Source: Ascidiella aspersa
Lineage: Eukaryota
Assembly (NCBI GenBank): GCA_963924565.1
Contig: OZ004612.1
Location: forward strand, 25,358,001-25,422,000
Length of the DNA stretch: 64,000 bases
Direction of reading: 5' to 3'
A program made the position numbers and the translations under genes. Below are positions 54 to 45,364 of the stretch, piece by piece (the first letter of the stretch is position 1; the number at the start of each line of letters is the position of its first letter). The notes beneath the pieces were generated by a model. That model had not been told where the DNA came from and ran no database searches. It saw only the letters and a program-made list of their open reading frames with translations.

Positions 54-333
54 CTGGCTGCGTCGCACAAACTCGAGGAACTGGTTGTTGAGCGTTTCGT
101 CATCAATTCCGTGATCCGTCGAGATGGCAACATTGAGGATGTGGATTGGTTCATCACTAGCGCTGCTCAGGGATGTCGTGTCCTCATCTTTGGAGGAGGA
201 TGTCGATCCGAGACGGAAGGAGTTGGAGTGAGCGAGCGTGGAGGAGGTGGAAGTGGAGGAGTGAGCCTCGAAGGAGATGGGCGAGTCGGGAGGTGAAGCG
301 TTGCTGAAGCAGGTTAGGATTGACTGGAAGTGC
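54..333 (-). CDS. ACACA: ACC exon (HFQSIL...[10 protein letters not shown]...RRSQ)
   Basis: [10 protein letters not shown] motif; Ser-rich insert; splice sites. Confidence 0.92.
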
Positions 334-6300: not shown

Positions 6301-9300
6301 GGCCTCTTGACGTAGTTGACGGTGCCGCTCTCCGATGCGGTTAGCGACATTACCATCTTCATCACCTCGATTTCAGCGTAGGTTTGACCTGCAATGAAAA
6401 ACGCAACTTTCCTAATATCACCGCAACGTGATCTGTTGTTTTAACATTTGTTTCGACGAGTTGGCTTCTAAAACCTTTTGAGTTTCATTACCTCTGACTG
6501 ACGAATCTTAATACAGTTTCCTTTCCCTTTAGGAACATTATAAAGTTATATGATGTGCAATCAATAAAATAATAAAACTAAAATTTTGCATTTAAATAGG
6601 GTTGGCAAGCCTGTCAATTGACCGGTCAAATACGGTCAATTGACCGGACAATTGACCGCAGTTTATTTAACCGGTCAAATACTAACATTCGATTCAAATA
6701 GAGTAAATTTTTTAAGGGTTGTTTTGTGATTTGAGTTGTTAATAATCTTGATTGTAACTTTTTTAAAGAATTCAAATATAAAATTGTAGGGTTTACCTGC
6801 AAACACATATTCTGTGGTAATAACAAAGTGTTTATAAAAGTAAAGTAGATTTATTTTGTTTAGAACTTTAGAATAAATGCACGTATATGATGAATCGCGT
6901 TTGTCATAAAAGGAAACACTAGTTGGGGTATACCACAATCTTAGGCTACTTAAAAATTTAGAAGAACCAAATACCTTGTCTTTAGTGAATCCTGGTGTTG
7001 ATTTAAAAAAATCAGATAGTGACAAAAGTTGTGACGAGGAGTAATAATACTTTTTTACCTGATGCATTTACTTGTTGTTAAATTTCGTTAATAAACTTGG
7101 TGGTTCTAGTAGTGGTAAAAATTGCTACTGTAACTGCTACAGTATTGCTATAAGATGGGCATGGTTTTGCAAAAATTATTATTGATAGTCAAAAATAAAT
7201 TGTTTTTGTTTTACAAACCATTGTATCTGAGCCAAAACGTTCATATATTTATTTAAAGTTATAAAATCAAGGTTTATTTTTAACTTCAATTGCATTATGA
7301 TAGTGTTTATAGTATTTGACCAATATTTGACCTATTTGACGAGTATTTGACCGGTCAATTGACTGGATTTTATTTGACTGGTCAAATGCCCAACCCTACA
7401 TTTAAATATAAAAAAATTAACATTTAACTGATTGTAAAGCTCGACAAATGCTTTCATGAATTACATATATTATATAAATTATTACAAAATCACCCCCATA
7501 AAATAAGCAAACAACCCCTTGGGGGTAATTACCAAAAACTAGGGACCGCCGGTTAAGAATGGAAGCACCAGTTTATATATTTGAGCTTCATTAATATAAT
7601 TCGAAAAATACAGTATAAATGCCATAGTCAACAAAAACATAAAATAAGAATGTAGTTAATGTTTTCTTAGGTGCACATAAAATAAGTCCAAACAGTAGTT
7701 AAAAATAGTTTTCTTTTGGGATTTTTCAATATATAAGTCAAAGTAAAGACTTCGTAGCAGCCCTGTAAGTTGTATATATTTACATTAAAAAAAATAACCT
7801 ATAACATCCCTAAAGTTTAGGATGCATATTACATTTAAGAGCAACTCAAGTATTTCTTTCAGCTAGCCTAACTAACCGGCCAGGATGTGTGCTCCGTCGG
7901 CCACCAAGAAGTTGATCAACTTGCCAGCAGAGGGCGCTCGCAGCACCGACGGGTCGTTTTCTTTCTCGAATTCGCTCGTCTGGTTGTTGATCGTGATCCT
8001 GTACCTGTTCGGTTTCGAAACAATGCGCCATTGTTTACGCTAGCGAGAGTTGTTGTTGTTTGAATTTGCACGTTTATCTATAGCCAGCCCGGAATTGCGT
8101 TAAACCACTTTAATCTCTGTTATGATGTTAAGACTGTTTATCAAAAACTGGTATAAAACATCAAATAATTTCTTGAATATTTTTTACAGAAATTTTATTT
8201 CGCCTTACGAATAGGTATCATAAGTTGCTTAATTTCGAATGACTTTTATCTCTTTTAGAATTTTTTTAAATGTTGAAAAGCGTTTTTGACATAATACTCG
8301 CATTGGTTTTGCTGTGAAATTATTTTTCTAAATAAGGAGAAGTGACTGAGCTAAGGATTTTACACGAGGTCTAGGACTGATATGCTACAAATTACCGACC
8401 ATTACGGCATACCCGTTTATTGCGATAATATCCATTCGGTATTAGTAGAAGTGGTTATGGGATATACTAAAATGCCAATTTAGGTATTTTCTTAAATATA
8501 GTTGTCGTTTAGCTCAAAACGGTGTTTACTATAACGCAAAACTTCCTGTTATGTGTTTCTGTGGTTACGTACTTTCAGTTCATATACGAGGTGTAGTAAG
8601 CGGCGGCGCCTAATGAATCGAATTATCTCAAACAACATTCTCGGGATTTCCTATCTTTGTTTTTGAACATTAAAAGTCGACGACGTTATTAGCATTCAGG
8701 TTTTACGTCAGACTATTGCGAAAGCGAAACGCAAGACAAAGCGGCTTTATTAATTATAAAAATACCAAAGGTTGAACCCTTTTCTGTACAATACGACAAG
8801 GTGAATTTATCCGTTACGACAGGCTGGGATCAAGTTTCGTGCGTGGCGACATACCAGTAATGCCACCAATGGGGTGGGCTGTTCAATACGCGCCCCGGGG
8901 TTACTACGGGTCATTCTGGGCGAAAAGCTACTACAGTTCACGCGTAACACATGTACGGCAATAGCTTTTCCACGACAAGTGTTAGACAAAATACCACGAT
9001 TTTGAGTGTCTTCGAAAAGTAAATGGTGTGCTTTGGTAATACAAAAAACACAGAGAAAAAACACTGCTTTTTATTGCATATTACCGCGTCACATTTTAAT
9101 ATAAATTTTAAGCAGATGAAAAACTCTGCATTAAACTTACTTGTCGACCTCTTCTTTAAGGTATGTGGTTCGACTGATGCCATCCAATGAAAGGAGCAGC
9201 CCTCCATCCGACAACCTGCAAAATAAACAAAAAATACTTTTAAGTTGCAATGATAAATGGTGAAAAGGAAATAGATTAATTTCAGCGAGTCATTTCAAGC

Positions 9301-12300
9301 TCCGTTTCAAATATTGTACGAGAACGCATGAAAAGTCAATAAATCCTTTGTAAAAAGCCTTTTACTAGCTATTAGTTAGTAATTTTAAAATTTTCTCTAT
9401 TAGAATATTTTATTTCAAATTACACCCACTTAAATTAGACCCACTAAAAAAACAAAGAGAAATAATGGACCCCTGAAATTTTGAACAAATTATTTCTGCA
9501 CTGCGTGTGGGCAAAAAGCGTTGATCCAGCAAAGCGGAACAAAAATGCCATTCAAGGGCAGAACACCGATTCAACATAAACCGACAACATTGGATGAGCA
9601 TTACAGCGTTGTGCGGATGACAAAAAACAAGCCGAAAGGCAAAACCTTCCGTTGTATTGCGACTTCCTTCCTTTGCCGTATGCACGGCCAGTTGCAGCTG
9701 TGTTTTGCAATGGAAAAAATTAGGCGTCCGACAGCGGTTTAGGTAGCGGTCTATAATAACGCCGGCAGTTGAGAACCTTGCACTAATGATACTGGATAAA
9801 CAAGGTTTTCACACACTTTTATGGGAAAAAAATCTAAGACATTTAAATTGGTCAAAAGAAATTTCGAAGGTTTTCAAAGACGTAAAATAATTGAACTACT
9901 TGACATGATATTCGATAAAATCGACGTTTCGCCATTTACAGACGTTTCAGCAATAACTCATGCCATCATTGGTGTAAAAATCCAACTGGATTTTTACTTG
10001 GATTTTTATTTTATTTTAACACAGATGATGGCATGAGTTATTGCTGAAACGTCTGTAAATTGCAAACTAGTTTTTGAAATAATTCGAAAATAAAGCAGTT
10101 CAAATGCCGTGGTCAACAAAATAACCATTCGTTTCAAAAAATGTTTTTACAGCGGAACTTTCTTAACACCTAGTTCGAGCAACAAATACAAGACTTCTGG
10201 AAAACGTAAGACCTTTCCATCTGCGAGTCAATTCACAGACGATTCACAGACTCGCAACCCTTAAAAAAACGACACAGGATGATTAACAGACCCAAACTAA
10301 GTTTATCATGGGGTAGGTATTAAAAGCGTTGCGTTTCAACACTGCTATAGTTAATAATATTATCGACATATCCTTAAATACTTATTTATCTAAGCTTTCT
10401 TTTCAGATGTTGTGACTGCGGTTGTGACTGCGGTATTATTCCATGTTAAATAAACTAGGGTTCAGTTTTAAAACCATCGTTCAACTTATTTGACCCTTTT
10501 GTGGTTTGCAAGCCCCTAAAAATGCGCCAGTGATCCCAAAATGGATAAAAAAACTCAAAGAACTTCAACCAGGCTAGTTGTTTTTCTAGCCAGCCTTGCT
10601 TGCATCATTAATCGACAGATTCGTTGAGTATGCGGTGGCTATTTGGTGTTCAAGCATCCTTATAGTAGTATAAGCTTGAATCCTACCTGTAAACGTCCAC
10701 CTCCATACTCCAGTCGTTACACTGGATGAAGTAAGCCGTCTCTGAAGTCTTGGTGGCCTCTAGCACGTACTTGACGCCTTCCGATATCAGCTCCACCGTT
10801 TCACTCGTCTTCAGACTGGCAGGGGTCAGCACTTGACCTCTGCGAGTGGACAGAGGTCGTTTGTTTGGTCAAACACGTGCAAGGGATAATTCGTAACCTC
10901 AAGATTTCTACTAATGCTATGTATTAAAAATACTTGAAGAAGATTAATGCTTATTTACTAACAAAAAATCAGCCAGAGTGATAAGAGGTCGTTTATTTCG
11001 TCAGGGCAAGGTCAAATTGTGTGCGGTTTGACTTTGGAAATTATCTTCTAGAAAATTTTATGATAAATTTATTTTTAAACTTTATTGCTTTTAGAGTTAA
11101 TTTTATTGTGGTGGGCAGAAAAAGTGGGCCACGTTTTCGAATGTTAACCCTAAAGTTTAGCAAGGGAATTTCCAGAAATTTTTTCATCCTGTAGCATTGC
11201 AAACAATTTACTTTAAGAACAGTTGGGTTTAATAAGTGAAATTTTCCGGAATGATCTAACGAAATGACATCTGCGGCAGGTTTTTTCAGAAATCAGGACG
11301 CAATTAATAGGAATTTCAGAAATGTTTCAACAATTTTACCGCAATTTTAAATCACTTGACTACTTTGATCTTTTGCAATTTCTGTGACGGCAACATATTA
11401 GTTGAAAAGCTTACCGTTCAAGCGAATTGAGGTAAAAGTCGAATCTTGCTTGATATTTTGAGTCAGCGATGTGAAGGGTGGTACACACCAGACCCACAGC
11501 AGTACAAGGACGCTCCGACTGAAATCGCAAATGGCATTGATTAAATTATTGACAAAAGCAATCACGGCCATCTATTTTTATGAAATCAATGAGAATGACA
11601 TTCGACAACTTTTTAAATACATTTTTTCAGTTTTTAAAAGATTTACATTTTTTTTAATTTGACTTGTTTTGAATATAGTTCGAAAATAAAACGGTGTAAA
11701 TGCCATGCTCACAAAATGTTTGCCAAACGCATAACTTAAGTTGCGCATAAAACCAATTTAAAAATATCCAGCGACTTGAGAAAATCACAGGGTTTTTAAA
11801 GACATTTAAAAAACCTGAAAAAAAACGTGAAACTGTGAAAACAAAAGAGAGGGGCAGTTATTTGTTCGGAATTAAATTCTATTGATTTTTAACATTGAGC
11901 AACATTTCCTTATAAATTTGCATTTTTTTAGTTTGCACAATTCGTTCAATGTAAGTTTTAAAATAACGACGCATCACAAGAAAATACGCTTTGAAGTTGC
12001 TGCTTTTTCACTATTGCTTTCAACAAAAGGCAGGAAATGGGGTGTTCCTAAAGTTGTGATTTGAAAGCTAATGTTTCGCGTGTGGATAAATCATTATGCT
12101 TGATTTGAGGTAATTTATTTTTTCGTGATTTTTTCGTGGCAACCCTGATCAAGTCGATAGATGAACAATTTGGGGTGCACTCCAATATATTTATTATTAA
12201 ACAATTTATTTATTACGTGTATAGAACAAAGAGTCCCATTTTTTGCGTACAAACGTTAGGAGTGATTTTTTTGAACTGGCCCCGGGTTAGAAGTAATTTT

Positions 12301-15300
12301 ATTTGAAGTTTGGCCCCGGGACAAATTAATCAATATTGATTTTTTTACCAAACGACCTGGTGTCCTATATATGGCCTTCGGTGAAAACGGGACGTAAAAT
12401 ATAGGCCAGAGCTAACCACACAAATCTGAAGTGTGCATATACTTGAGTTAAAATGCTGACTCCGGTTCGCATCACGCAAACGCAATCTGCTTACGCGTTT
12501 AAGATTTTTGCGGAATCGCCCTTTGCACAAATTGTGTTAGTTACATTTGCTGAAAATTTCGCCTATGCGACTTGTACGACCTTTTATGTTTTATATATGT
12601 TCCATAATACAAGTGTTGGTAAATTAAAACTTTAACGAAATAAAAACGTGTACGATTAATTTGGACAAAAAAAGGAAAAACGTTTGCAACCTTTGAATAG
12701 GAAACACGACAAACAGAATACGTTGAAGTGGTGATAACATAATACTTTGTAAAAACGTTGCCCTTTACATGAATGATTTTTGGCATAAATACCAGTAGTG
12801 TAAAACTGCTTAATGTTGCCAAAGCTCTAGCGAGTATTTTTTTCCAGAATTTGATTTCGGAGAATGCAGCAAAGCAACCAGACAGAAGCCTAAGCGAAGT
12901 TACGCGAAACGAACCGCAAATTTGCGTGGAGTGGCGAGCAAATTTGCCCAACCAACAAAAAGGGGTCAGTTTGTTTGCGCGCGGTTTCAAATCAGCCGTT
13001 TACCCAAGGCCCCTCTAGTCTCGAATACGCCCAAAATAGAGGTAGCGGAGGTGTTGTTTGCTTGTGTGGGCGGTTGCAGCTGCAAACGTATGGCGTGACA
13101 GAAGCCAAGGTACAAACTCTCGGGTGCCGACGGTGCAAGAAAATAAGGATAGGAGATAAAGTTTGCTTTAAAAATTGGGTGGTTTACTTTGCACGCTAAA
13201 CACTGATGTAGAGTTTTAAAGTGGCAAAATTTTGTTAAAATTTTTAGGTCAGGGGCCGCTAAATTACGACCCGCGAGACAGATTTATCGCGTTACAGTTT
13301 AGTTCCTTCGGCCTGTGAAATACTTTCTTATTGTTATCAAAAATACGACTATTTAAATCTTTGTTAACGAAAATGTTCGCCGGGTGCAAATCTAAGTTGA
13401 ATTTTTACAGAATTTTAGATTAAACAACCTTTTCATAAAGCTCACTATATATCTTATCAAATACTTTTCAACGTTTTTTTCGTATAACATTAGAGTCAAA
13501 AATAAGTTTGACAAAAGTGTTACACCAAGCACGTCAATCTTGATTCACTTATGCGATCACCAGTCCTTTCAGTTATCCGGACGTTTATGAAAAAAAGTAC
13601 GGTGAATCCTGTTCTCGACGTACAAAATTTGTATTTTTAAGGGCTTTTCGATTTTGTCAATAAGATGCTCACGAACGGACAGGAACAGTCGTTTAACGCC
13701 GTCGGTTTTCATAAAAAATCATGTACGAAAACTGAAAGTTTAAATACACCAGCGCAAATCACAAGTTCAAGTTTATGAAAAAGTCGCCCTTTCTCTCTTT
13801 ACGCGATAAAAAACCTAAAAATTAACCTATTCCAATTGCAACAGGTTGAAGTTAAAAAACGATACAATAATTCAGAGGTTTAGCGTTAGACAAGACAATT
13901 CAGCCGAGGCCTCGATTTTATGTAGTTATGAGCCGCAAATGCGTCAAAGCGCAAACACCGGTCGCTGTGGCGGAACTTTTCCCGAAAGTCTTCGTTACAT
14001 TCAAGGACAGTTCGCATAACGCCGCGTGACACTGTGACCTTTTGGGAAGGCTATTTGCTCTGCATGGAATTCTACTGGCAAGGTCGTTTTCCAGAAAAAA
14101 AACATCACCAAGCCAATATTCCTGTAGGCCTTGAGATCGGGAGGTTTGCAAACCGATATACGGTTTTCCATAAAGCTGTTTTAGTTAATCGTGTGACGGT
14201 TTTTGGAAATATGTACTGAACGCTAGATTTTCGCTACAATTACAGTTGTGTTTTTGGAAAGTATATTATGGAAGTTTAACGGACCGCCAAACACATCAAA
14301 ACCACAAAAAATTACCAAATTTATAATAGACTGAAATTGCTGCATTTTAGCTTTAGCTTTACATTACGGGAGTGTATAAAGAGTCAGGGTTTTTTGCAGA
14401 CGCTAAATTAAAAAAATGTAGATTTTCGCTACAATTGCAGAGTTATGTTTTTGGAAAGCAGTATGAAAGTTTAACGGACCGCTTGGGCACCAAAACGCAA
14501 ATAAAGTCTAAAAAAGCTTTAATAGAGTAAAGTTGCTGTATTTTAGGCTTTAGCTTTGCATTAAGGGCGTTTATTAAGAGTCTGTTTTTTTTTAAACTCG
14601 GTTAAAAAATGTTGTTTCTTTAATCCTTACCTTTAAAATCAGTTAAAAAATGTTGTTTCTTTAATCCTTACCTTGACTTTCTCGGCAATAAGCACGTCCA
14701 ACCAGGCGGTGTCGATCTGGTTGTGCTGGAAGCTTGGATCTTCGAGCAAACGGCCCAAGTACTCGACCGTGGTGCGGAAATCACCTCGGATCGAGAGCTC
14801 CTTCAGCGCCATCACCATGTTGCTGTAAGTAAATACCAAAAAGGCGATTAAAAATACAAGCCAAGTGTTCACGAAACTTGTTTCGGTTATGTCGGTATGG
14901 ATCTCATTTCGTTGCGATTTCGACACTGCCGATTTACCTGTGGCGTCCAACTGGAAATTTAAAGCAAACTGAAGTAAATACATTATAATAAAACGTTTTA
15001 CTTTAAGAACGGAATTGGGCAGAATTTGGAAATAGCGGAACCTATTCTACGTTTCGAGAACCAAAGCACTCAAAAAACGTCCAAAGCACTTACGATATGG
15101 CGTATTCCCGGTTTTCTCCCCATGCAAAGCAATGGCCGAACTGTGAGTCGGCATATTCGTGCAGACCACCGGCTGCTCCAACGCTGAAGTATCCCCACAC
15201 GTTCTTGCTGCTGCGGAAGTTAAGCTCCTGTACCGTACCTGCGTTTAAATGTGTAGATGTTATAGCTGTTTTGGAGCACACCGCTGTTTACTTTGTCAAA

Positions 15301-18300
15301 CAGCTAAAAGTGTTAATATTACACGAGCCTTTTAAGCTATATGTTAAACACAGACATTTGTTTATATTTTTTTCCGGTTAAGATTTGTCATTACCAAACA
15401 ACAAAAAAAAATCTTTAAAACAAATCAATATTTTATTAATATTGAGCTGCAAACTTTTACATAAGTACAAACAACGGTTAACACATGCGTAATAACGTAT
15501 ATAATATGCTAAAAATGCGAACTTTGAAGATGTTAATTCCCTTACGTGTGCAAAAAACATCCCAATTGGACGCCATCATTATAGCTTTTTGCAATATTTG
15601 GGACTTCACTTCAAAATTTATTATTTTTATACATTGATATACTTGAGATAGTGGACAGCAATGTTCCACACTTGGGCAAAATGCCGAGGAGTTCAAAAAC
15701 AGTGCACAAATATTTTCATAGCTAAGCTATGCCGACGCGCGAAAAACCAGGTGTTAGCATTTTTGGAGACAAGCAAAGGTCAAACACCGTCGACTTCGCC
15801 GTTTTTAAAGCCAAACATTGCAAGCCCCAAGGTTATTTCGTGTGACCTTGAACATTGCCGTGCATTGCAGGCCAAAGAGAATAACACGGCAATTGTGCAT
15901 TCAACAAAGCAAGCACTAATCTCTTACCGGCGCTCGGCTTGAAACCTTCGTCGGGATTTTCACTGGTGATTCTGGCAGCTATCACGTGACCGTGTGGCTC
16001 TGGGTCGTTACGTGGTCTGCAAAAAATGTGTGAATAAATTTTAAGTAATAAAAGCGATAAGGCTTAACATGGGCCTATTAAACTAGAAAAGCGCGACTTT
16101 TGTGATACTCGCAATATAAGCGTTTCGGTATTACTAGATTTAAAGTAATACAACTTTTGTTTCGTGGCTTTTAAGAAAACAATAATAACAAGTTTGAAAA
16201 CCCCCAAAAAATCAGGTCGGCAACGATTGAAAGCATTGAATTACAGGGAAAAAAATTCGGCATCTGTTATTTTAACACTATTGTGGTCGTGGACACAAAC
16301 AAATGCGGAAGTTGTTGTTTTAATAGGCGGCCTTTATAAAAACAATGAGTCAAAACGGAATGATCCTGAAAAATAGTTTTATCAGGCCATTATTATTAAT
16401 AATAACATTAATACGGCGCCCGTCGAGACAGTTATCCGGTATATGACTAGATCAACGCCTCGCAAAAGATCAGTCTCTCGTTCTATCAATTAAAAAAAGA
16501 AAAAAACGAAAAGGAGAGATAGAGAGAGAGAACGAGAAAAAATTTAAAAGAGAAAAAGAGTGAGAGAGGAAGAAAAAGAGTAGGAGAAAAAAAATGAGAG
16601 GGAAAGACAGAGAGAGAGAGCCAGTTTTCGGCTCGGTCACTCACGTTATAAAGTCGATGGGCGTGTCGGAGGCGGGGTCTTCCTGGTATAGGATGCGGAT
16701 GTCGCGGATTCGATGCAGGGGAATCCCCATGGCAACTTGCAGTTGTGCGGCGGGCAAGTTTACGTCGGCGATCATTTCGGTGCAAGGGTGCTCGACCTAA
16801 ATGGAAAGGACGGGTCAAAATATGCGTAGAAGTAGATATTATGAGCGTGGCAAATTTAAAAATGCCCTGGCTGGGTTATGACGTCGTAAATTGTGTTTTG
16901 AGGGTTGTTTATATTGTCCTTTTTTTTGTACCATAGCGACTTAAATTCCAGTTTTTAATACGTAAGTAAATGTTATAAAATACTAGTTAAAAAAAACGAA
17001 TTCCTGTAAACTTTTAAAGGTAAATTAATTATCAGTGATCGAAAAGCTTGGCGCATAACCAAATAAAAACACATTAAAAGCATTGAGCTTTAACGCCTAA
17101 GGCCTAAGTTGTATAAAATTCTACTCCAGACAATGTTGTACTTATATAAAAAAAACACATACGTTGATTCTTTACTCCCCAAAAAACCGTTATTACTTTG
17201 CTGCCCACAATTTACGCACAGAAAAATTAATTACGTCGCAATTTAAATTTAGCGACAATTCAAAACAAGAGTTGACAAATAAAACACAGGTAGGGAAAAA
17301 ACTTGCCAGTCGCAGCATCACAAACCTGTAATCGCGGGTTCAGTTCCAGAAAGGCGTAAGTTCCGTCTTCGCTGTACAAATACTCCACGGTTCCCGCACT
17401 CACGTAGCCAACCATCTTGGCCAGAGCAACCGCGTCCTGATGATGAAAAATATGAACCCTTTTTGCAGGTGCTTGACGTTTGACCCGAAGGCGGCGCGGT
17501 CAAAGTTCGGTGAGCACACGAAATGCGGTCAAGCCGGCGAGACGCCAGAAAATGGGAAATATTAAGGTCAGAAATACCGCATTTTTTATGTTTTGGCCAC
17601 AAATGACGTTTGGTAATCAGTAACCGTGAGATATACGAGCACAACCTCGTGATTTTTACGAACCGTTGTTTTATTGCTTTTTAACGCGCAAGTTCTTTAT
17701 CAAAGGCTACAAATGTCAATGTGCAATACACTAGCCCTACAAGCCTATTGCAAGGTTTGATTGCAGAACTTAAATTTACGCTGTCTATACGTAGAAGTTT
17801 ATGAAACCGTTTTGAATGCAGATAAGACCTAATCAATCTACGAATAGTGCTCAACAAGTAGGACACGAAAAATACCAATTTCAGATTCTTTACCTTTCAG
17901 CAACAGACAAAAAAATACAGGCGGCTTTTAATATTCCCGCACATGCCCTAAACAACATTTTCATTCGATTCCGCTAAATCTGAGTAAAGGTTTACGTGTA
18001 CGTAAAAATCGAGTACAAACATGCGAAGGAAAACATCCGAGTGTCTTTCCCAGCCAAATAGTACCCAATGGCAATTTTTCAGGCAGCAACGAATTTTTCA
18101 GGTCGTCTTGTTTGTACAGCAGTGGTCGGACGACCGGGCGCCGTAATTCGTACAGCGTGCGTATAATGGGACGGATGCGGTTTTAAGTTACACAAAACTT
18201 CTGCTGCCTGCGAAAACAGCAGGTTAACGGGATACGGATTTTAATGTGGCTGAAATGGCCGGTTTATATCGACAATTGTGAGCTGTCCTTTTAGCGGATA

Positions 18301-30300: not shown

Positions 30301-33300
30301 CGGTCAGGCCAGAGCAAGGGTCGCTGGTGGCGTCTGGGGCTCGGCTTGCGGCTTCAGCGCGTTTCACGCCAGCGGCGGCGGGCTTTTGGTGCCCAAAAAC
30401 CGGCGAAAATTTGTCGTCGTTTTTCTTCTGGGCGTCTTTCACCCGCTGAAGCCTCTCTTCAAATCCGGGCTTAAACAGGTCGCCGACTCCGTTTTTCAAC
30501 GGTGGAATTGTCGCGTAGCCGTTGCTTTTGGTCATTCCGGTCAGATGCGACAACACAGTGGTGGCGGCCGCGTGGTCAAAGGGAAAGCACCGACCGTTAT
30601 CCGGCGCCGAATCGTCCATGATGAGCCAGGAGAAGGGCGGGAAGGCGCCGTGGTTTTCTGGCATGACAAAGGCAGTCATCTTGTCAGTGGAATTGTAGGT
30701 TTAATCAGCAAAAAGTCTTCTTTCTTCTTAAAGGCTTGAATTCATTGCGTTTTTTAGGTAAAAATAACTCGTCCTATTGTGAGTTAACCATGTAATTACG
30801 CTAACCAATTAATATAGTGAGCTGTCGATGCAACATAAGTACAGCGTCAGAAGGTGGTTGGCCGCGCATTTCCCGGTAGCTTGACCCAAATTAGGCTATA
30901 TAGCAGTGGTTCTCAACCTTTTTTTTCACCGCGTACCACCTCGAGGTTCTATGATCTTGTTGCGTACCAACAAATTATCGAAAAACACAACTTTACTCAA
31001 AATGTATATAGGATTATTAACAGGGGCGGATTAGCTAATTAGTTAGGCCGGAAATTTCAAAACAAATGCGGCCCACTAATCTTGAAAAAGTTTCCCTTTT
31101 TTAACTTGCAAGATACCGATAGTCAAGTTTTGTGATTCTTTGTTGTTTTTCTATGATGTCATAAAATAAATTTGCATAGATGTTCCGGAAAGATAATAAT
31201 TCTTATCCTTGATGAAGCATAAAATATTTAACTATGTATAGTTTATTACAATAGAAAAAATAATAAACTTTTTCGTAAAACTGTAATTTTAAACATACTG
31301 TGTACCCACCCAAAATTACTTCACGTACCACAGGTTGAAAACCACTGCTATATAGGCTAGGTGACTGTTTTCTGCGCAGAGCACATTGCAGCAAGGCCTT
31401 GTTTTTTTAACGGTTGGCCAGCTCACACAGCTAAAGTGACGTCAGATCACGCTACGCCATCCGCACCGAGCCTGGCTCTACGCACAAAAACGCACCTTTT
31501 AAGATAGCAAGGTATGCAAATTTCGTGTAAACAACCCATTTCCCATTCAGAAGTAGGTAGCACTTTGAATGTTCGCACAACTCTTTATTCAATGCAACAT
31601 CATGTTGAGTTATTCGAGAGTTAAGAGTTATTTGAAACGTTCAAAATTCTACCTACTTATGTATGGGTCTTTGATATTCTTATTACGTCTTACTACAACC
31701 TCCAACCATTATGCTCCAAAGTCCAAACCCATTTCCCATACAAATAATTAACAAATAGGGGCAGGCTAACAAATTGTGTTCAAAACTCCAGTTTTAGCCT
31801 TGTCAGCGAAATAAAGACGTAAACATTCGTACAACTTTGGAACTCCAAAACACTAAGTTTGAACAAGAATAATTTAAAACCGTTTTCCGATGTTTTAACT
31901 TTCGATGGCCGCAGCAAAGTGGACACCGCATGTTAATTAGCAAGCATTAACAAAGGAAATGAAGTAAGCGTGGGTGAAACGGGGTCGCCTGGGTAGCGGC
32001 GCTTTCGATAAAACAGCGACAAAAACGTTGACTCCCAACACAGATGCTTACAGTGAAACGCGAAAGGTAATAAAATTATCTAGCCCAGTAACCTAAGACG
32101 TGATAATAAAGAAACACCGGACAAAACGCGCTTTGTTGTTGAACAACGAACGCCTACTAGGCGTGTAGCGTCCCCTTGACGAATCGTACGGTGTTATATA
32201 CAACGGCTTACAAAATCGCAAAACCTGCCCAACTAACGAAGACTGGTATAAAACGGTTGGACATATGATTAACGGGGTTCATACCGACTTTGTTGGGGGG
32301 TGCTTAAAAAAAAGGGATGCTTAAAATTTTCGATAAATTTAACGTTACAAAATGACCGCTGTTTATATGCGGAGTGGTGAGAGAGTTAAAATGTGACTTA
32401 TTGGAAATGATTGACTAGCTGTCGAAATTTATGTGGAAATGGGGCCAAAAATTGTATGTATCAACAGAAATGTAATGATTTTGCATGTAGATTTATTTTA
32501 GTTTTATGGTGAATGAGCACCCTAAGCAACTTGGTTCCAAGATAGGGAAATTAATTGACATTGACAAGATTCAAAACACTGCCAATGAGGCGAGCTTATA
32601 AACAAGTAAGGTCGAGGTTTACAATTTCAAAGTCAAATCTTTCTGATCCTGAATGAACTGCCGTATTTCTAATTTTAAAATACATGGTGTAAAACCTATG
32701 ATAATAATTTGTGATCACCAGCACAGGCACACACTATCACGAAAAGAACGCGTGGTCTCATCAGCAAAAAGCAAACAACTGACCACAGCGCTAAGGTCTG
32801 GTGGGCACGCTATACGGGGGACTGAAGTGCAAATCGCTAAATCACCTCGCGCTTAAGCCGCCTGTCGTCAATTATGACGGGCCGTCGGTATCGCGACACG
32901 AGGCTCCGGCTTGTGTTTACGCTACAGGACTCTGCTGAATGGCAAACCTGGCTAAACCGCGATTCACCAATGAAATCTAGGCGCTGTGCATGACTTTTAG
33001 TGGATCTCATAGTTTTTATGCCTTTTTTGCTGTAAACCAAACTTTTCTTGGCCTTTCATTAACTACAGGGTTTTTTAAGCCGCGAAAATGCTGTTGCACA
33101 AAAAACACCGTGTTTTTCCAAAGTCCTGATTGGTATCGCTATTGATACGACAGAATTGGCCGACGCTGACAAAATTCATTGAGCGCGAAAGCCTTTATTT
33201 TCTCTTGACAAGTTCGCTTTGCACAATTTCCGAATTAAAAGCGCGAAGTTGTTACATAGAACACAACCTAACTCTAGGTAATTGCTGTACTGCATTAACT

Positions 33301-36300: not shown

Positions 36301-39300
36301 CGAATTTCGCAACTGATGGGCAAAAACAATTTTAATTTTTTAAGGTGGGATAGAACGTGGTTGAATATTTTCAAACCATGTATTGTAGGTGGATAAAGTA
36401 TTTGACACCTCTAGGAGCGGGTAGCTGAACACTTCCCTGACTTAGTTACGTAAATGGCTGAAATATAGGCTGTGGAGTCGCAGCCGGACTTGAAAGTCAA
36501 ACTATAGTTTTCTTTAATCGACTCCGCAGAGCTAATTTCACCCAAATAAAATTTGACAACAATGCACTAAAAAAATTATAATTTACGCAATTTTTTTCAG
36601 AACGTAGAAAAAACAATATTACGTTTTATGAGTTATGGCCAATTTAAAGTTACGGCAGGCCGCAGCTATACGTAATACAAAAAGTGGCGTGCCATCGTTT
36701 AGGCAAGAGACTGATAAATGGGTTTTCACTTCGCTGATTGTAGTAAACAAAACAAAAACGAACAGCGGCGACGCTAAATTTACTTGGCTCGTGCGACCTG
36801 CTACAGGAAAATGCTAGTTCATCATAGAACGCCTTGCCTTTGGTATACAATTGACGTTGAAAAACATGTTTTTATTCGCGTATTAAGAACACATTAAAAA
36901 AGCTGATTAGATAATTGAAGATATCCCGGTTATCAATGCCGCTATTTTTTATCACCGCGTCATGCTAGAAAAATCATGTGACCGTTAGTATTCAGACCAC
37001 TGTTACTCGTATATGGCCCTACGGGTATATAGGCCGGCCTTGGGAGAAAGTGGGTTTTAGGGTTTTACAAACAATGACCTCGCCTTCTACGCTAGAGTCA
37101 CAAACAATAGCGGGCCGTTTGCCAAGGCTAAGGCAACCATTTTTTTGCTTGCCATTGATTCAAATTCGTATAGCCGGTAAATTTTCGGAAGAGCAAATAT
37201 TTTTGCCGGGCGTAACACGTTTTTTGGTCATTTAATGTGATTCATTTTCCTGTTACGTAATCTAGCTGTTTGGGTAAGGCAAGACGTGTTATAACTTAGT
37301 CCTGCATACCTAAGTAGTTTTTTTACATTTGCAAAATATGCTATTTCATTATTTCTTCATGCAAAACAAAATCATCAAATAGGCGAAAACAATTTATCAG
37401 TGTTGCATGAAATAGTAACACTAAAACGGGAAAAAATATCTTCAGACAATCTATTACCGTTTGACACCACCGAATGCAACAGGCTGATTGCCAAAGTATT
37501 CAAAAGGCAATTAGACATCTGGGAAACCAACTTCAGGTCAATAACACATCGCCAGCCGAACTAAAGACACGATTGAAAAGATTACACAATCAATATACTA
37601 CTCGGCACTGGTCTAGAATCCTACCACATTTATTTTAACAGTAACGAAACGAGTTGTCAAAGTTGAAATTGCAAGAAAGGCATAAATATGTAAGAATAAA
37701 TATAATAATAACGTAACCCACCTAAACCCAAACGATAACTCTCACCCTAACCAAAATAAAGTTAGCAATATAAACACTCAGACGAAAATGTGGTAGGATT
37801 CTAGACCAGCGCCCAATACTCATTTTTAAATAACCAAATACGAGCAACTAAATGAGAAAAAGTCTGTTTTTAAATCGAATAAATCAAACTTATTATTCCA
37901 GGGACAATGTAACTGGCAATAAGCTAAGCTTCTAGTCACACAATAAATGTGTAGGTTTCAAAATGCAAAATAATAAACGGAGTAGTTTAATGCATTTTAC
38001 AATGTAGCATTAACATTTTTAGTCGATTTATTGCCTAATAAAAAAACAATAAAAACATCCGTTTCTATAGTTACTGGTGATACTGTCAAACAACAATTTC
38101 CGAAAACGTTTGCTAGCAACACAAAGATAACGTCAAAAAAACTGACAAAACATCCAACAGAGAAATAGCAATACTTCCAAATGCACCAATTTTAGGAGCC
38201 AATCAATCAGCAAAAACAAGCAGTCTTACCCGCGTGCCTTTACAGGCAGTCGCATCGTAACAGATAACGTAAACTGAACGGCTCACTACTACTTCCTACG
38301 CTGAGCCAGGCTGGCCGATTATATCAATAGCAAATCGGCCGCCGTTCAAATTCAGTTTGGGCGCCGGCTGCGGTGTGACCTGGAGTTACCCCATCGCGTG
38401 GTTGGTCACGCATGGGTGGCGGCTTGTACAACAGCCCGGAGTTACTTCGGGTGACTGGCTCGTGCGATTGTTACCTCATAGATGCCGTGATATGCGGTGA
38501 CTATTGTGTCACAATGCCCATGGACAGACGTTACTGGTAGTCTGGTACAGTCTCTTACTTCGTAAGTTTAATTTACTTTTCAAGTCAATTTGCGTAAAAC
38601 TAGGCGAACCCTGGGTGAACAAAATGAGCGGTAATCACGGGACGGCCGTGCCCTTTCGACAAACATGTGGATTGGGGGCGGGACAAAAGTCACAGACGCT
38701 TTTCTATTAAGAGAATTTCCCTGCGATTGGCAGTTCAGCTAATTATGGAAAGCCGGCGATATATTGAACAGTTAACATGTAAAAAGATTTTTCTAAGATC
38801 TCCAAAGAATCATAAAAGGTAAAAAGCTTTAAAATGACTTAAAAAAAGTTCAAAAACAACCTTTGTTTGCAAATTGAATAGCAAAATATTCCATTAAATC
38901 TTTTATCTTCAGTACCCATTTCAGCTATAACCTTTTTGTTTTTCGAAGTCGAAAACTTTTTGATGCCGAACGAAAATACAAAAACAGTTCTGGAATAAAA
39001 GTTGGCTGCGAACTCAGATTTTTCTCTGCCAAAACAGCATATTACAACGACTGAAGATAGTGTTTTACGGTTCAAAATGAAGGTTCCACAATTGTAACAG
39101 CAACAATAAAATTTCACACTACTATAAGTCGAGTTTAAATGGAGAAAAAATGTACTGACTGCAAGAAAGTTTAACGCATCAGAGATAACTAGCAGCTTTG
39201 GGTTGTATCGGCTTTAAACCCAGACACTATTTGTGGATAAACAAGTATAGCGAGCTAATAGCGCTATACAGCATAAAAATACATAATAGAAAAGCTGTGA

Positions 39301-40630
39301 CAAATTTCAGACCAGAAATGAGGCCAATTGAGCAAAGCGTTTCCAAGAACAAAAGTGTATTTATTGAAATGCAAACAAACGTTATGCTGCCTGGTAGACA
39401 AACACTTGTAATAATTTATTAATAAACACAGAGCAGTAGAAAAGGGGGCTATGGTAAGGCTCCAAACAGTTGAGACCTGCACTTTAGTTCAGCAGGCAAC
39501 AACGCTATGAAGTGCTTTCGAGTTTTCAGGGTCACGTCATTTTGGACCGGCGCCCGTGGGTTGGGGTTACAACAGGTCAATGACCTTGCCTAAGGCTTAA
39601 TATCGCGCCATCCGCTGACCATGAATTTCAAAAGAGGGCGGTAATTTTGTAAAATAAGGTGTTCAGGCGAATTTTCTTTAACAAAAATTACCTGCTGTCG
39701 AAATAAAAAGGATATTTGGATCGGCGCCCGTTGGGGTTACTATAGGTCAAAAATCGGCGAACGGCTGAATATCGCGCCATGAGTTGACCATGAATCACGG
39801 AGCCACTTTGTGTATAATGGGTAGTTTAAAGTAAAAGGTGAATTTTGTAAAATGGAGGCAACAAAAATAAAGGGTATTCTTTAAACCAAATAACAATTTT
39901 GCGTCATAGCACGCCTTGCCCTTTGGCACACCCGCGTGGTGAACGCCGTAACTTTATCTATTTTATGTTGGCTTGGCGATAAGGAGCAAACAGATAGCAA
40001 AAAATACACACATCCATTTCACAAATGTCTGATTTAGTTTGTGACACATAATAAAGACCATTTTGATCTTTATTCTAAGTCCTCCCTATAACAATTCGCT
40101 ATATATTTGTTATCTGTTGGTTGCAAAATGTCTGACTGAATATAGAGGCTGGGAACATTTACATTTTTTATTGTGGTTCGGAGAAATTTATTTGTATGTA
40201 AAAACAAATTTAAGTTATGTTTCATAGTGTCCTATAGATAAACAACTAAAAAGGTCAGTAAAACAAAATAGCTGTCTATTTCAGTCTAAGATAAAATTTA
40301 ATGATTTTTTTTCAAACCTGATTTACACAAAGTTTAATTAAAAAACATCTACCTAATAATTTTTAGTCTAAAATTATGTAAAAATACATGTGTACAAGAT
40401 TTAAATGTATAACTGTAAAAAATTTATGAAAAATAAATCACATAAAATGTAAACATGTTGATTTTTGATTACCTGGCGTCTGCTCCAGAAGTTGTCTTCT
40501 GTTCGGAATTTTGTTTTGCCAAATTTTGGATTTGTTCAGAATTCTGCTGCATGTCAACTTCAGTTATTGAATCTTCGGAGGAGTTAGATGAAACGGAACC
40601 AACATGAAATGATACTTGTCTATCTTCCAT
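54..40630 (-). CDS. ACACA: Acetyl-CoA carboxylase, 5' part (26 coding exons, 1352 codons; gene continues past window start)
   Basis: Spliced exons with GT-AG borders and consistent phases. Hallmark motifs: [71 protein letters not shown] (biotin Lys), [26 protein letters not shown] vs ACACB cannot be resolved; this may be the single invertebrate ACC. Confidence 0.97.
920..1075 (-). CDS. ACACA: ACC exon (MHQREY...KVASV...PPCQRMG...)
   Basis: Regulatory loop and PPCQRMG motif. Confidence 0.93.
1575..1693 (-). CDS. ACACA: ACC exon ([12 protein letters not shown]...PTSHPNR)
   Basis: Conserved central domain motif. Confidence 0.95.
2251..2406 (-). CDS. ACACA: ACC exon (VESIFLS...RMAAFE)
   Basis: [10 protein letters not shown] motif. 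Confidence 0.95.
2888..3049 (-). CDS. ACACA: ACC exon (NSVSGRD...[11 protein letters not shown]...HSQ)
   Basis: [11 protein letters not shown] motif. Confidence 0.95.
3799..4012 (-). CDS. ACACA: ACC exon ([10 protein letters not shown]...IQLI)
   Basis: GIRGH motif, splice sites. Confidence 0.94.
4667..4887 (-). CDS. ACACA: ACC exon ([11 protein letters not shown]...QIVNR)
   Basis: Central domain motif YASNITS..QFP. Confidence 0.94.
5464..5610 (-). CDS. ACACA: ACC exon (VFSVAH...[12 protein letters not shown])
   Basis: Central domain motif [10 protein letters not shown]. Confidence 0.94.
5795..5903 (-). CDS. ACACA: ACC exon (LEPDD...KSHK)
   Basis: Phase-consistent splice sites. Confidence 0.9.
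6265..6388 (-). CDS. ACACA: ACC exon, BCCP with biotinylated Lys (YAEIEVMKM)
   Basis: MKM at 6362-6354. Confidence 0.97.
6597..7398 (+). mobile_element. Non-autonomous hAT element with transposase C-terminal relic
   Basis: TIR TAGGGTTGG(G)CA, perfect 8-bp TSD CATTTAAA, subterminal TTGACCGGTCAA repeats; 6877-7044 reads [18 protein letters not shown]. Confidence 0.8.
7877..8004 (-). CDS. ACACA: ACC exon (YRITI...[18 protein letters not shown])
   Basis: BT-BCCP junction motif. Confidence 0.95.
8866..8913. promoter_or_regulatory. Intronic DR4 with CCAAT and SRE-like motif
   Basis: GGGTTActacGGGTCA (8898-8913), CCAAT (8866), ATGGGGTGGG (8869). Confidence 0.5.
9141..9215 (-). CDS. ACACA: ACC exon (LSDGGLLLS...KEEVDK)
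   Basis: Conserved LSDGGLL motif. Confidence 0.94.
10687..10839 (-). CDS. ACACA: ACC exon (GQVLTPASL...VDVYR)
   Basis: BT domain, phase-consistent. Confidence 0.92.
11415..11518 (-). CDS. ACACA: ACC exon (SERPCTAV...NSLER)
   Basis: BT domain start, phase-consistent. Confidence 0.92.
14672..14822 (-). CDS. ACACA: ACC exon ([22 protein letters not shown]...EKVK)
   Basis: BC C-terminal motif, splice sites. Confidence 0.96.
15094..15238 (-). CDS. ACACA: ACC exon ([20 protein letters not shown]...)
   Basis: Conserved BC motif, splice sites. Confidence 0.96.
15928..16016 (-). CDS. ACACA: ACC exon ([19 protein letters not shown])
   Basis: Conserved BC motif, splice sites. Confidence 0.96.
16645..16796 (-). 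CDS. ACACA: ACC exon (VEHPCTEM...PIDFI)
   Basis: Conserved BC motif, splice sites. Confidence 0.96.
17326..17436 (-). CDS. ACACA: ACC exon (DAVALAK...FLELNPRLQ)
   Basis: Conserved BC motif, splice sites. Confidence 0.96.
18827..18983 (-). CDS. ACACA: ACC exon (SRHLEVQ...[11 protein letters not shown]...MEK)
   Basis: Conserved BC motif, splice sites. Confidence 0.96.
19370..19533 (-). CDS. ACACA: ACC exon ([24 protein letters not shown]...)
   Basis: ATP-grasp glycine loop, splice sites. Confidence 0.96.
21240..21510. repeat. AT-rich minisatellite (ATTATTTTGTCGAAAAA...CATCATCAAT)
   Basis: Six to seven imperfect tandem copies. Confidence 0.75.
21524..21759 (-). CDS. ACACA: ACC exon ([11 protein letters not shown]...DALK)
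   Basis: Conserved BC motif, splice sites. Confidence 0.96.
22414..22525 (-). CDS. ACACA: ACC exon ([13 protein letters not shown]...MWAL)
   Basis: Conserved BC motif, splice sites. Confidence 0.96.
23554..23786. promoter_or_regulatory. Intronic lipogenic enhancer candidate: two DR4, E-box, SRE-like, CCAAT
   Basis: GGGTTActgtCGATCA (23560), GGGTTActgtCGGTCA (23590), CACGTG (23607), ATTGG (23554, 23681), GTGGCGTG (23751, 23777). Confidence 0.55.
23882..24000. repeat. Long palindrome (~51-bp arms)
   Basis: Arms are near-perfect reverse complements; degenerate copy at ~31550-31720. Confidence 0.8.
24769..25017 (-). CDS. ACACA: ACC exon, BC domain start (VLIANNG...TNVQ)
   Basis: Conserved BC motif, splice sites. 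Confidence 0.96.
25173..25490. mobile_element. hAT-like MITE
   Basis: TIR TAGAGAT(A/C)GAC(C/A)GATA with subterminal CCGAT repeats; TSD degenerate. Confidence 0.6.
28446..28629 (-). CDS. ACACA: ACC exon (SQTSAPQQ...GGKRSIEK)
   Basis: AG/GT borders; [14 protein letters not shown] precedes the BC domain. Confidence 0.9.
29154..29484. mobile_element. hAT (Buster-type) MITE
   Basis: TIR CAGGGGTTC; TSD GTGTACAC/GTGTACAA. Confidence 0.75.
29909..30679 (-). CDS. Intronless orphan ORF (256 aa) nested in ACC intron, two CxxC motifs
   Basis: Longest ungapped ORF in the window, GC-rich like true exons, AAGATG start context, AATAAA ~230 nt after the stop (29679-29674). No recognisable family. Confidence 0.7.
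   Translation of the reverse strand: MTAFVMPENHGAFPPFSWLIMDDSAPDNGRCFPFDHAAATTVLSHLTGMTKSNGYATIPPLKNGVGDLFKPGFEERLQRVKDAQKKNDDKFSPVFGHQKPAAAGVKRAEAASRAPDATSDPCSGLTGYIKRCNKQRKQYDCLRCGAPLTVADKVRDGLMRSRSWPQVSAKKAAAAAAETRPVFKCQKCGKRYSDLTLAKRLRKRSYYARRVNGVRRSITWPLPMESIAEEHEPALLVFEDAAGQEGDDSQWVVRAV
30904..31347. mobile_element. hAT (Buster-type) MITE
   Basis: TIR CAGTGGTT(C/T)TCAACCT; perfect TSD CTATATAG. Confidence 0.8.
33502..33939. mobile_element. hAT-like MITE
   Basis: TIR CAGGGCTAC(C/T)CAAC; TSD not conserved. Confidence 0.55.
37604..37813. mobile_element. Small MITE with ~28-bp TIR
   Basis: GGC(A/G)CTGGTCTAGAATCCTACCACATTT inverted repeat; partial copy at ~41565-41675. Confidence 0.7.
38230..38255 (-). 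CDS. ACACA: Candidate alternative first coding exon of ACC (MRLPVKARG)
   Basis: ATG plus 26 nt, GTAAGA donor in phase 2, same phase as the 28629 acceptor; GC-rich promoter-like region immediately upstream. Confidence 0.5.
38256..38480 (-). promoter_or_regulatory. Candidate internal ACC promoter with DR4 elements
   Basis: GC-rich island upstream of the MRLPVKARG exon; TGACCTggagTTACCC (38376-38391), GAGTTActtcGGGTGA (38439-38454). Confidence 0.45.
39564..39749. promoter_or_regulatory. Duplicated DR4 (LXRE-type) elements, the first overlapping a perfect IR1
   Basis: GGGTTAcaacAGGTCAaTGACCT (39564-39586); GGGTTActatAGGTCA (39734-39749). Confidence 0.6.
40473..40630 (-). CDS. ACACA: ACC first coding exon ([20 protein letters not shown]...ADAR)
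   Basis: ATG at 40630; 158 nt ending in phase 2 at a GTAATC donor, matching the 28629 acceptor. [13 protein letters not shown] resembles vertebrate ACC1 FIIGSVSEDNSED. Confidence 0.8.
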
Positions 40631-43600: not shown

Positions 43601-45300
43601 TTAACACTAATTTGGTGTTTCTGTTATCACTTAGAAGACCTTTCTTATGACATTCTAATACACAAGTTAATATTAACTTGTGTATTGACGACGGGACACC
43701 AAGTCCAACTAACACTACCGCCAAATTACAATACACACTACATACAAAATTTAACTAAAGTTTCTAGCGATTTTAGAGGGCGAGTCTTTTTTGTAGGGTG
43801 CTTGTTTTGTCTATAGCCAGGAACTTATACAAGGCATAGGTCCACAGACCTGCGTACCCGGTTTTGTGACGTGTAAAAATGACTCTATATGACATGTTAG
43901 AATTATAATCAACTTATAATAATTCAGTTAATATACGTAGCGTAAAAATATGTTGTAAAATACGCTAAACTATCCGACCGGCAAAGTTGATTCTATCCGG
44001 CCCGCGATAACCAGTTCGTTATCCGTTCCTCTGTGAAGAGTTTTGACTCGTATGCTATAGGGTTGTGCTAAAGAGAGATCCACACACATGTACAAACTGC
44101 GACGCATCGAAAATCCGGTGTTAACTCCATTAGTCAACCGCTCTATAAAGAAGAACAATCAAGCACTCCGCGTCTTTTCGACGGCCGGATGTCGTCGATG
44201 TACCGGGTGATACATGTGCGGAAATGTTTGTTGTTTCGCAATGATCAGCGGACCGCCTTTTCAGTTGCTCACGTAGTGTGTGTTAGGTGGGCACAAGGCT
44301 GCATTTACCGGAGCGTTCGAAGTCGCGAGGATTTAACTACCTACTTGAGTATAACAATATACATTATTATGACGAAAAATCTATAGCGAATGACCATAAT
44401 CTTCTCATACAAAAATACTGATTTGTTGATTTCTGATTCAAAAATCGTTGTTCGTCAAAAGTTCACTAAAACCTTCATAAGTTCGAAATAAGTTGGCCTA
44501 ATTAGAACTAGGATGCGAGGCAAGGCAAGTTGAGGCCGACCTACGAGCTTTACTGATAGACTGTGTTCGTGTAGATTTTTTTACAGATACAGCCTATAGG
44601 CTGAGTTGTAGGTGAGCAAAAGTGTTGTAAACAAGTCATTTTGAAATGACTCAAGTCCAAGTCAAGTAATTTGTAAAATAACTTAAGTTCGATGCATGAA
44701 ATCGAAATGTAGCTCGACAATGACATGCAAAGGCAAAAAGGTCGAGTAAATCGACATAATCTTGATAACAAATTGTTTTATGTCCGTGAATTGAAAAACA
44801 AATAACCTAATTTTGCCAAAAAAATGCCCAATGAAATCATTTCAATCAAGGTCATTTGTCCAAAAGACTTAAGTCACATCAAAGACCAAGACATTTTGCC
44901 CAACATACTTAAGTCAAGTTCAAAAACAGTGACTAAAATGCGCTAAAGTCAAGCTATACGACTTAAGTCATTACAACACTGCTACCCTTATTAAATTTAC
45001 GTCTACCCCTTCCAACAGATGGGCACAATAATACTTATCTGGCGACTTGAGACCAACAACAACTAAAATACGTTTTTTTTTTCTGTGACATTTATTCAAA
45101 ATCAGATTTAAGTTGGGAAACCGAGTTCCAAATCGAAAAGGCCTGTTTTAAATTTAGAAAAAATAATTTCTTGTTTATTTACAATTCTAATATTTTCTCT
45201 GAATGCCATTTCTAGAAAATCTTGACCAGTAAGTTTAACACGAAGATTGTCGATTCATCGTGTAATTGTGACTTTTACTGAAAACCAACCGGCACGAAAA

Positions 45301-45364
45301 ATGAAGTTCGAACTCTCGCTGGTCCTATTGGTTTTCTGTAGCGTTTGGCGCAGTGGCACGACAT
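45301..45364 (+). CDS. ZP protein exon 1 (signal peptide)
   Basis: MKFELSLVLLVFCSVWRSGTT, GTAAGT donor. Confidence 0.8.

What the first reader, a model, noticed from the sequence alone, without database searches (positions are those of the whole stretch)
8898..39749. At least six LXR-type DR4 elements spread through the ACC locus
Seen: GGGTTA-cNNN-(A/C/G)G(G/A)TCA at 8898, 23560, 23590, 39564 and 39734, plus a reverse GGGTAActccAGGTCA at 38376. All sit in non-repeat GC-richer intronic patches, and I noticed none in the ZP-gene half of the window. Established: RGGTTActnnMGGTCA is the LXR/RXR response element of vertebrate lipogenic genes. Inference: sterol/LXR control of lipogenesis is hard-wired here in an invertebrate, implying the circuit is older than vertebrates.
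Basis: partly seen in the sequence, partly recalled or inferred. Interest (0 to 1): 0.7.

Follow-up and report, generated by a model that had tools for sequence, protein, structure and literature searches.

The report
Sea-squirt fat-synthesis genes carry LXR switches
A sea squirt's acetyl-CoA carboxylase gene holds six DNA motifs shaped like the vertebrate LXR receptor's binding site, and the same motif sits beside fatty acid synthase and desaturase genes, so LXR control of fat synthesis likely exists outside vertebrates, although binding is untested and the motif also occurs near many unrelated genes.

Summary
All six DR4 motifs are present as reported, in introns of a spliced ACC gene. The animal is an ascidian with an intact LXR and an RXR. 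Six sites in 41.3 kb compare with 2 in 400 kb of random tiles, and other spacings give none. No repeat homology was found in their flanks. The CT spacer, and an LXR N-terminal extension matching vertebrate LXR, point to LXR rather than TR. Prechosen targets partly agree: one FASN pair (about 130 bp before the start codon), one SCD cluster, one elongase and LXR itself carry the motif. 18 of 22 lipid loci do not, including SREBP and four ABCA genes. Genome-wide the strict motif occurs 1224 times against 3 for the reversed control; 726 have the flank of one hAT-type transposon, and only 2 of 32 sampled sites lie near lipid genes. Best reading: real LXR/RXR elements working with SREBP on fat-synthesis genes. 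Sterol sensing and inheritance from the vertebrate-tunicate ancestor are not shown.

The parts
8898..8913 (+). DR4 site 1, exact match to the LXRE-type consensus, intronic
   Evidence: intron between an exon read by eye at about 9141-9217 and the exon at 7875-8009
8870..8876 (-). SRE-like core beside site 1
   Evidence: SRE core pattern recalled
23560..23575 (+). DR4 site 2, one mismatch in the second half-site; paired 30 bp from site 3
23590..23605 (+). DR4 site 3, exact match, followed by an E-box; intron after the third coding exon
23752..23784 (-). two SRE-like cores near sites 2 and 3
38376..38391 (-). DR4 site 4, one mismatch in the first half-site
39564..39579 (+). DR4 site 5, one mismatch in the spacer
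39734..39749 (+). DR4 site 6, exact match
39530..39810 (+). old 170-bp-period duplication holding sites 5 and 6; motif blocks kept, linkers diverged; SRE-like variant cores at 39604 and 39773
40473..40630 (-). ACC first coding exon; the transcription start was not located
28446..28629 (-). ACC second coding exon
24769..25017 (-). ACC third coding exon (biotin carboxylase N-terminus)
   Evidence: 77-87% identity to animal ACC
54..22525 (-). further ACC coding exons; the gene runs off the left edge of the window
29909..30700 (-). 263-aa open frame nested in ACC intron 1, with same-strand RNA; a possible second target of sites 4-6
   Evidence: no Pfam or Atlas hit

Best explanation
The six intronic DR4 motifs are likely binding sites for the sea squirt's LXR/RXR heterodimer, and would act in four enhancer clusters, probably together with SREBP, to raise ACC transcription as part of a fat-synthesis gene set that also includes one FASN pair, one SCD cluster and possibly one elongase. 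Shown: the motifs, their excess over background, DR4-specific spacing, intronic position in a spliced ACC gene, an LXR gene with DNA- and ligand-binding exons, an RXR DNA-binding domain, the same motif at FASN and SCD, and SRE-like cores beside three of the four ACC clusters. From established knowledge: RXR/LXR binds DR4 and prefers a CTNN spacer read by the LXR N-terminal extension. Inferred: binding, activation, ACC as the target gene, and SREBP cooperation. The ligand is unknown.
For: Excess and spacing. Receptor: DBD exon best hits are tunicate proteins (Clavelina 81%, Phallusia LXR 74%, Ciona LXR 72%); ligand-binding exons match Phallusia LXR at 86-96% in four segments. The KRKKGPAPK stretch before the DBD is the same in this LXR, three tunicate LXRs, coelacanth and platypus LXR. 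PMC7406977 (passages) says the LXR N-terminal extension binds a CTNN spacer while TR prefers NN(T/C)N; PMC3295715 (passages) found the CT spacer de novo in human LXR ChIP-seq. With the spacer left free, 43 of the first 100 listed sites (of 508) have CT (counted by eye, tandem copies included; about 6 expected from base composition). Spacer position 3 is a pyrimidine in 24 of 45 site families and 1 of 6 ACC sites, so no TR preference. Prechosen targets: exact site about 130 bp before the start codon of both C1 FASN genes (one duplicated promoter), chance about 8e-4 per 500 bp; four sites upstream of the C2 SCD cluster; a pair about 11 kb before one elongase; one intronic non-repeat site in LXR. 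SRE core within 250 bp: 3 of 10 lipogenic clusters against 1 of 33 other DR4 clusters and 1.5-2.4% of random windows (Fisher p 0.034); 5 of 10 with a pattern widened after seeing ACC (p 0.0014). Mouse Acaca, Fasn and Scd1 are classical LXR-induced genes (PMC8851562, passages).
Against: No binding, reporter or chromatin data. No cross-species test. 18 of 22 lipid loci scanned lack a non-repeat site: SREBP (60 kb), four ABCA genes (200 kb), the second FASN-like pair (60 kb), the second SCD, 8 of 9 elongase loci, FADS, DEGS and OXSM. Pooled lipid tiles hold 12 sites in 810 kb against 2 in 400 kb of random tiles, a weak difference (p about 0.1, by hand). The motif is common genome-wide (1224 exact; 726 with the transposon flank), and only 2 of 32 sites sampled without regard to gene lie near a lipid or sterol gene. 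Vertebrate RXR heterodimers bind DR elements promiscuously in vitro (PMC6555819, passages). FASN A and B, and ACC sites 5 and 6, are duplicates and not independent in the SRE count.
Confidence: 0.62

Rival explanations
1. The motif is a general-purpose element of this genome, spread by a transposon and by local tandem duplication, bound or not by LXR/RXR but with no special tie to lipid synthesis; ACC is one of many loci that collected copies.
For: 726 of 1224 exact matches carry the flank of one roughly 970-bp TIR element. Unrelated minisatellites near chromosome ends have the DR4 as their core. 63 of 101 non-transposon sites have a same-strand partner within 200 bp (arrays included). Sampled sites lie in or by BRCT, PDZ, kinesin, RICTOR, Reelin, MAP1 and permease genes.
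Against: ACC flanks show no similarity to the transposon or to other sites. Four dispersed clusters in one gene, a proximal-promoter site at FASN and SRE-like cores at ACC and FASN but at only 1 of 33 other clusters (the one is a lipase) are hard to get by chance.
Confidence: 0.17
2. The sites are real response elements but are read mainly by another RXR partner, TR or the VDR/PXR-like receptor, or shared among them.
For: TR, VDR/PXR-like and FXR-like DBDs are in this genome (names assigned by recall of family sequences). DR4 is the canonical TR element as well (PMC8851562 and PMC6555819, passages). The transposon copy contains TAAGGTCA, recalled as an optimal TR half-site.
Against: CT spacer bias and no NN(T/C)N bias (PMC7406977). 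The N-terminal extension said to read the spacer is kept in this LXR.
Confidence: 0.13
3. The sites are functional LXR/RXR elements but sites 4-6 control another transcript, such as the nested 263-aa frame in intron 1 or a neighbouring gene, and not ACC.
For: The nested frame has same-strand RNA. The ACC transcription start was not located, and site 1 is over 30 kb from the first coding exon.
Against: All four clusters lie inside ACC, three have SRE-like cores, and FASN and SCD show the same motif.
Confidence: 0.08

Closest known systems
Vertebrate LXR response element (RXR/LXR DR4; JASPAR MA0494.1 is named in PMC6555819)
   Same: Direct repeat with a 4-nt spacer, CT at spacer positions 1-2, presence at Acaca/Fasn/Scd-type genes, several sites per target gene.
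   Different: Found in a tunicate; binding untested; none at SREBP or four ABCA genes, which are core vertebrate targets; near-perfect copies are far more frequent than chance genome-wide.
Chicken ACC-alpha promoter LXR/TR element beside an SREBP site (recalled; not retrieved)
   Same: ACC gene with a DR4 next to an SRE-like site.
   Different: Here four intronic clusters and no located promoter site.
Thyroid hormone response element (RXR/TR DR4)
   Same: DR4 geometry; TR is present in the genome.
   Different: TR prefers an NN(T/C)N spacer (PMC7406977), which these sites do not show.
Repeat-borne nuclear receptor elements, such as DR4 in Alu repeats (PMC5159539, search listing only)
   Same: A dispersed repeat supplies most genomic copies of the motif.
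   Different: The carrier is a non-autonomous hAT-type DNA transposon, and the ACC sites are not in it.

Membership tests
LXR response element (RXR/LXR DR4) | Two RGKTCA-like half-sites in direct repeat with a 4-nt spacer | tested here: met
   spacers 2, 3, 5, 6 give none
LXR response element (RXR/LXR DR4) | CTNN spacer preference | tested here: met
   5 of 6 ACC sites; 43 of the first 100 listed free-spacer sites (counted by eye); PMC7406977, PMC3295715
LXR response element (RXR/LXR DR4) | LXR and RXR encoded in the genome, with the LXR N-terminal extension | tested here: met
   for RXR only the DBD exons were seen
LXR response element (RXR/LXR DR4) | Binding by the LXR/RXR heterodimer | not testable with these tools
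   needs EMSA, SELEX or CUT&RUN
LXR response element (RXR/LXR DR4) | Ligand-dependent activation of the linked gene | not testable with these tools
   tunicate LXR responds to some oxysterols and other steroids, not to synthetic agonists (PMC5381633, passages)
Vertebrate LXR regulon | Elements at lipogenic enzyme genes (ACC, FASN, SCD) | tested here: met
   ACC; 1 of 2 FASN pairs; 1 of 2 SCD loci
Vertebrate LXR regulon | Elements at SREBP (feed-forward arm) | tested here: not met
   none with at most one mismatch in 60 kb around the bHLH exon; the 5' end of the gene was not mapped
Vertebrate LXR regulon | Elements at ABCA1-type sterol efflux genes | tested here: not met
   none in 200 kb covering the first coding exons of four ABCA genes; ABCG genes and three further ABCA copies not scanned
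Vertebrate LXR regulon | Sites conserved across species (common descent) | not testable with these tools
   no relatives held; laid runs differed by only about 2%; one metagenome FASN contig of an unidentified animal had no site
Thyroid hormone response element (DR4) | NN(T/C)N spacer preference | tested here: not met
   pyrimidine at spacer position 3 in 24 of 45 families and 1 of 6 ACC sites
Copies of the DR4-bearing dispersed repeat | Flank homology to the TIR element | tested here: not met
   nhmmer of 11 copies against the window: best E 1.9; no masked-flank BLAST hits

The most novel reading that the evidence does not exclude
LXR's job in the common ancestor of tunicates and vertebrates was direct control of the fatty-acid synthesis chain (ACC, FASN, elongase, SCD) alongside SREBP, and the cholesterol-efflux and SREBP-1c feed-forward arms were added in vertebrates; in this ascidian the same element has been multiplied to over a thousand perfect copies by a hAT transposon and by minisatellites, giving an unusually readable nuclear-receptor regulon.
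Probability: 0.3. Interest if true: 0.78.

Novelty: new member of a known kind. Interest (0 to 1): 0.57.

Why it matters
[quoted passage not shown] Native target sites in a tunicate, the sister group of vertebrates, would date the LXR DNA code and its lipogenic output, and would let one ask which arm came first, fat synthesis or sterol efflux. The sites are short and testable by EMSA and embryo reporter assays.

Tried and rejected
Telomere-repeat origin of the first half-site: a separate repeat with a GG spacer start exists (12 of 100 listed), but all six ACC sites continue with C. Transposon origin of the ACC sites: no homology. Footprinting with other runs: no RNA holder was listed as indexed; the laid DNA runs, including the one labelled organism B, differed by about 2% in unique pieces, and the variant table was dominated by repeats, so constraint on the sites could not be judged. 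An alternative first exon near site 4, suggested by a donor-like sequence at about 38229: no joint seen at about 1-2x RNA depth, neither shown nor excluded. Cross-species search in metagenome contigs with a FASN first-exon alignment: one contig, unidentified animal, no site within one mismatch; no weight given. Pfam HLH and desaturase searches missed SREBP by name and SCD, which were then found with degenerate codon patterns. CCAAT, CRE and GC-box counts near the sites were not clearly different from controls, and the E-box count was not enriched. Reschly 2008 was not held and is cited only through PMC5381633. Paper searches listed no report of LXR elements at ascidian lipogenic genes; the library lacks most subscription papers, and a Halocynthia LXR paper that I recall was not among the hits and may bear on novelty.

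Full report
Observation. The six 16-mers are at the stated places. Scored against RGGTTACTNNVGGTCA, three are exact and three carry one mismatch, and they are the only hits at that level in the 64 kb; a two-mismatch site lies at 38439. ACC is on the minus strand (tblastn with four animal ACC proteins). Four RNA reads join 40473 to 28629, which fixes the first coding intron, 11.8 kb long, holding sites 38376, 39564 and 39734. Sites 23560 and 23590 follow the third coding exon and 8898 lies near the biotin-carrier exon. The six form four clusters: 39564 and 39734 are an old duplication in which the motif blocks are kept and the linkers diverged, and 23560 and 23590 are a 30-bp pair with unrelated flanks.

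Chance. Forty evenly chosen 10-kb tiles held 2 sites with at most one mismatch, against 6 in the 41.3 kb of ACC; the same half-sites at spacers 2, 3, 5 and 6 gave none in either set; 60 third-order Markov simulations averaged 0.017. Three exact sites at the genome-wide rate have P 6.5e-4, and four clusters at the upper 95% bound of the random rate have P 0.007. These values ignore that the locus was noticed because of the motifs. The remaining 30 kb of ACC beyond the window held none. The sites lie in GC- and CpG-richer patches. The stretch 39480-39860 has one match in the genome, and masked flanks of all six match none of 109 other sites.

Organism and receptors. The genome is 308.6 Mb in 75 contigs. 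Its zinc-finger C4 matches resolve into about 17-18 nuclear receptor genes (names assigned by recall), in line with the 17 of Ciona (PMC7827873, passages). One DBD exon has tunicate best hits, two of them named LXR, and tunicate LXR proteins align along a full gene with ligand-binding exons at C8:12.90-12.92 Mb. In PDB, that DBD exon alone scores FXR and EcR slightly above LXR-beta, so the assignment rests on the N-terminal extension and the ligand-binding exons; a separate FXR-like gene exists on C8. RXR, TR and VDR/PXR-like DBDs are present. The KRKKGPAPK stretch before the DBD is shared with coelacanth and platypus LXR. PMC7406977 (passages) states that the LXR N-terminal extension binds a preferred CTNN spacer, whereas TR prefers NN(T/C)N; PMC3295715 (passages) recovered the CT spacer from human LXR ChIP-seq. 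With the spacer free, the genome has 508 matches against 26 reversed controls, and 43 of the first 100 listed have CT (counted by eye, tandem copies included). Spacer position 3 shows no pyrimidine bias (24 of 45 families).

Other lipid genes, chosen before their DNA was scanned. Two divergent FASN genes on C1 each have an exact site about 130 bp before the start codon, one with a second site 34 bp away; the promoters are duplicates and count once. Four sites lie upstream of the first gene of a six- or seven-gene SCD cluster on C2. A pair lies about 11 kb before one of nine elongase loci; I read that gene as ELOVL6-like from recall, and did not exclude a gene in between. LXR has one non-repeat intronic site and one transposon-borne site. 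Against this, nothing was found at SREBP (60 kb), four ABCA genes (200 kb; 4 of the 7 found), the second FASN-like pair (60 kb; also FASN-like), the second SCD, eight elongase loci, FADS, DEGS and OXSM: 4 of 22 loci positive, and 12 sites in 810 kb pooled against 2 in 400 kb. An SRE core lies within 250 bp of 3 of 10 lipogenic clusters against 1 of 33 other clusters and 1.5-2.4% of random windows; a wider pattern, set after seeing ACC, gives 5 of 10, including three of four ACC clusters. The ten clusters include duplicates.

Genome-wide background. The strict motif occurs 1224 times against 3 for its reversed form. 726 are followed by the flank of one element, about 970 bp long with 22-24-bp terminal inverted repeats and 8-bp target duplications in the four copies inspected, which I read as a non-autonomous hAT-type transposon from recall of hAT ends. 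The other 498 include older variants of it, minisatellites with 25- to 47-bp units near chromosome ends, and unique sites. Of 32 sites or clusters fetched without regard to gene, 4 were transposon-like, many had no identifiable gene in the 6-20 kb fetched, most identified neighbours were non-lipid genes, and 2 were a lipase and a 3-beta-HSD family gene (66 candidate frames were scanned against Pfam, not all of those listed). The motif is therefore not specific to lipid genes.

Mechanism. Most likely RXR/LXR binds these sites, the conserved extension reads the CT spacer, and paired sites with nearby SREBP sites form intronic enhancers of ACC (0.62). Binding, activation, target and ligand are inferred. 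Tunicate LXR is not activated by synthetic agonists but by some oxysterols and other steroids, and its physiological ligand is thought to differ from the vertebrate one (PMC5381633, passages), so sterol control is not established. Rivals: a generic motif spread by repeats (0.17), another RXR partner (0.13), another target transcript (0.08). Even if the mechanism holds, independent gain in this lineage remains open, since no second tunicate genome could be scanned.

Literature seen. Passages only of PMC5381633, PMC3295715, PMC12922443, PMC8851562, PMC6555819, PMC7406977 and PMC7827873; search listings only for the rest; no supplements read. Searches listed no report of LXR elements at ascidian lipogenic genes. 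The chicken ACC element and a Halocynthia LXR study are recalled, not seen. The scan's own index had no note on this motif.

Verdict. Observation confirmed; interpretation partly supported; a new member of a known kind, with a testable evolutionary lead. Interest 0.57.

Noticed in passing
L007, L016, L018, L022 and at least 726 places genome-wide; one copy at G000:C8:12913713 inside the LXR gene: A roughly 970-bp non-autonomous TIR element with 8-bp target duplications (hAT-like) carries a perfect LXRE-type DR4; a possible transposon-spread receptor site.
   Followed up: partly
G000:C1:105.2k, C1:139.8k, C1:144.6k, C1:1.291M, C2:38.349M, C2:39.605M, C3:3.292M: Several minisatellites with 25-47-bp units, mostly near chromosome ends and inside introns, each have the DR4 as the core of the unit.
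   Followed up: partly
window 23560/23590; L128 5360/5394; L178; L179; L281; L194: Non-duplicated same-strand DR4 pairs recur at 26-34-bp spacing at ACC, FASN, SCD, one elongase and RICTOR, against a 0.6% chance of any partner within 200 bp.
   Followed up: partly
window 29909-30700, minus strand: A 263-aa, GC-rich open frame with cysteine pairs nested in ACC intron 1, with same-strand RNA reads and no Pfam or Atlas match.
   Followed up: partly
G000:C1:7.48-7.55M, C3:10.98-11.06M, C2:4.26-4.32M, C8:22.13-22.15M: Lipogenic genes are expanded: two divergent pairs of FASN-like genes, a tandem SCD cluster and a cluster of intronless elongases.
   Followed up: no
L195 (G000:C2:17.273-17.283M) and L194 (C2:3.66-3.67M): A lipase locus holds six DR4-like sites and an SRE core, and RICTOR holds five in three clusters.
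   Followed up: partly
L103 about 7398-7413 (G000:C8:12902398): An intronic DR4 in the LXR gene, set inside a short inverted repeat, could mean autoregulation.
   Followed up: no
window about 45300-54800, plus strand: Neighbouring multi-exon gene with a ZP-C domain (Pfam hit at 54552-54785), divergent from ACC.
   Followed up: no
L038 and L041 (G000:C7:20.79M and 20.96M): Two near-identical NR2E-like DBD genes (named by recall), although PMC7827873 says tunicates lost TLX/PNR.
   Followed up: no
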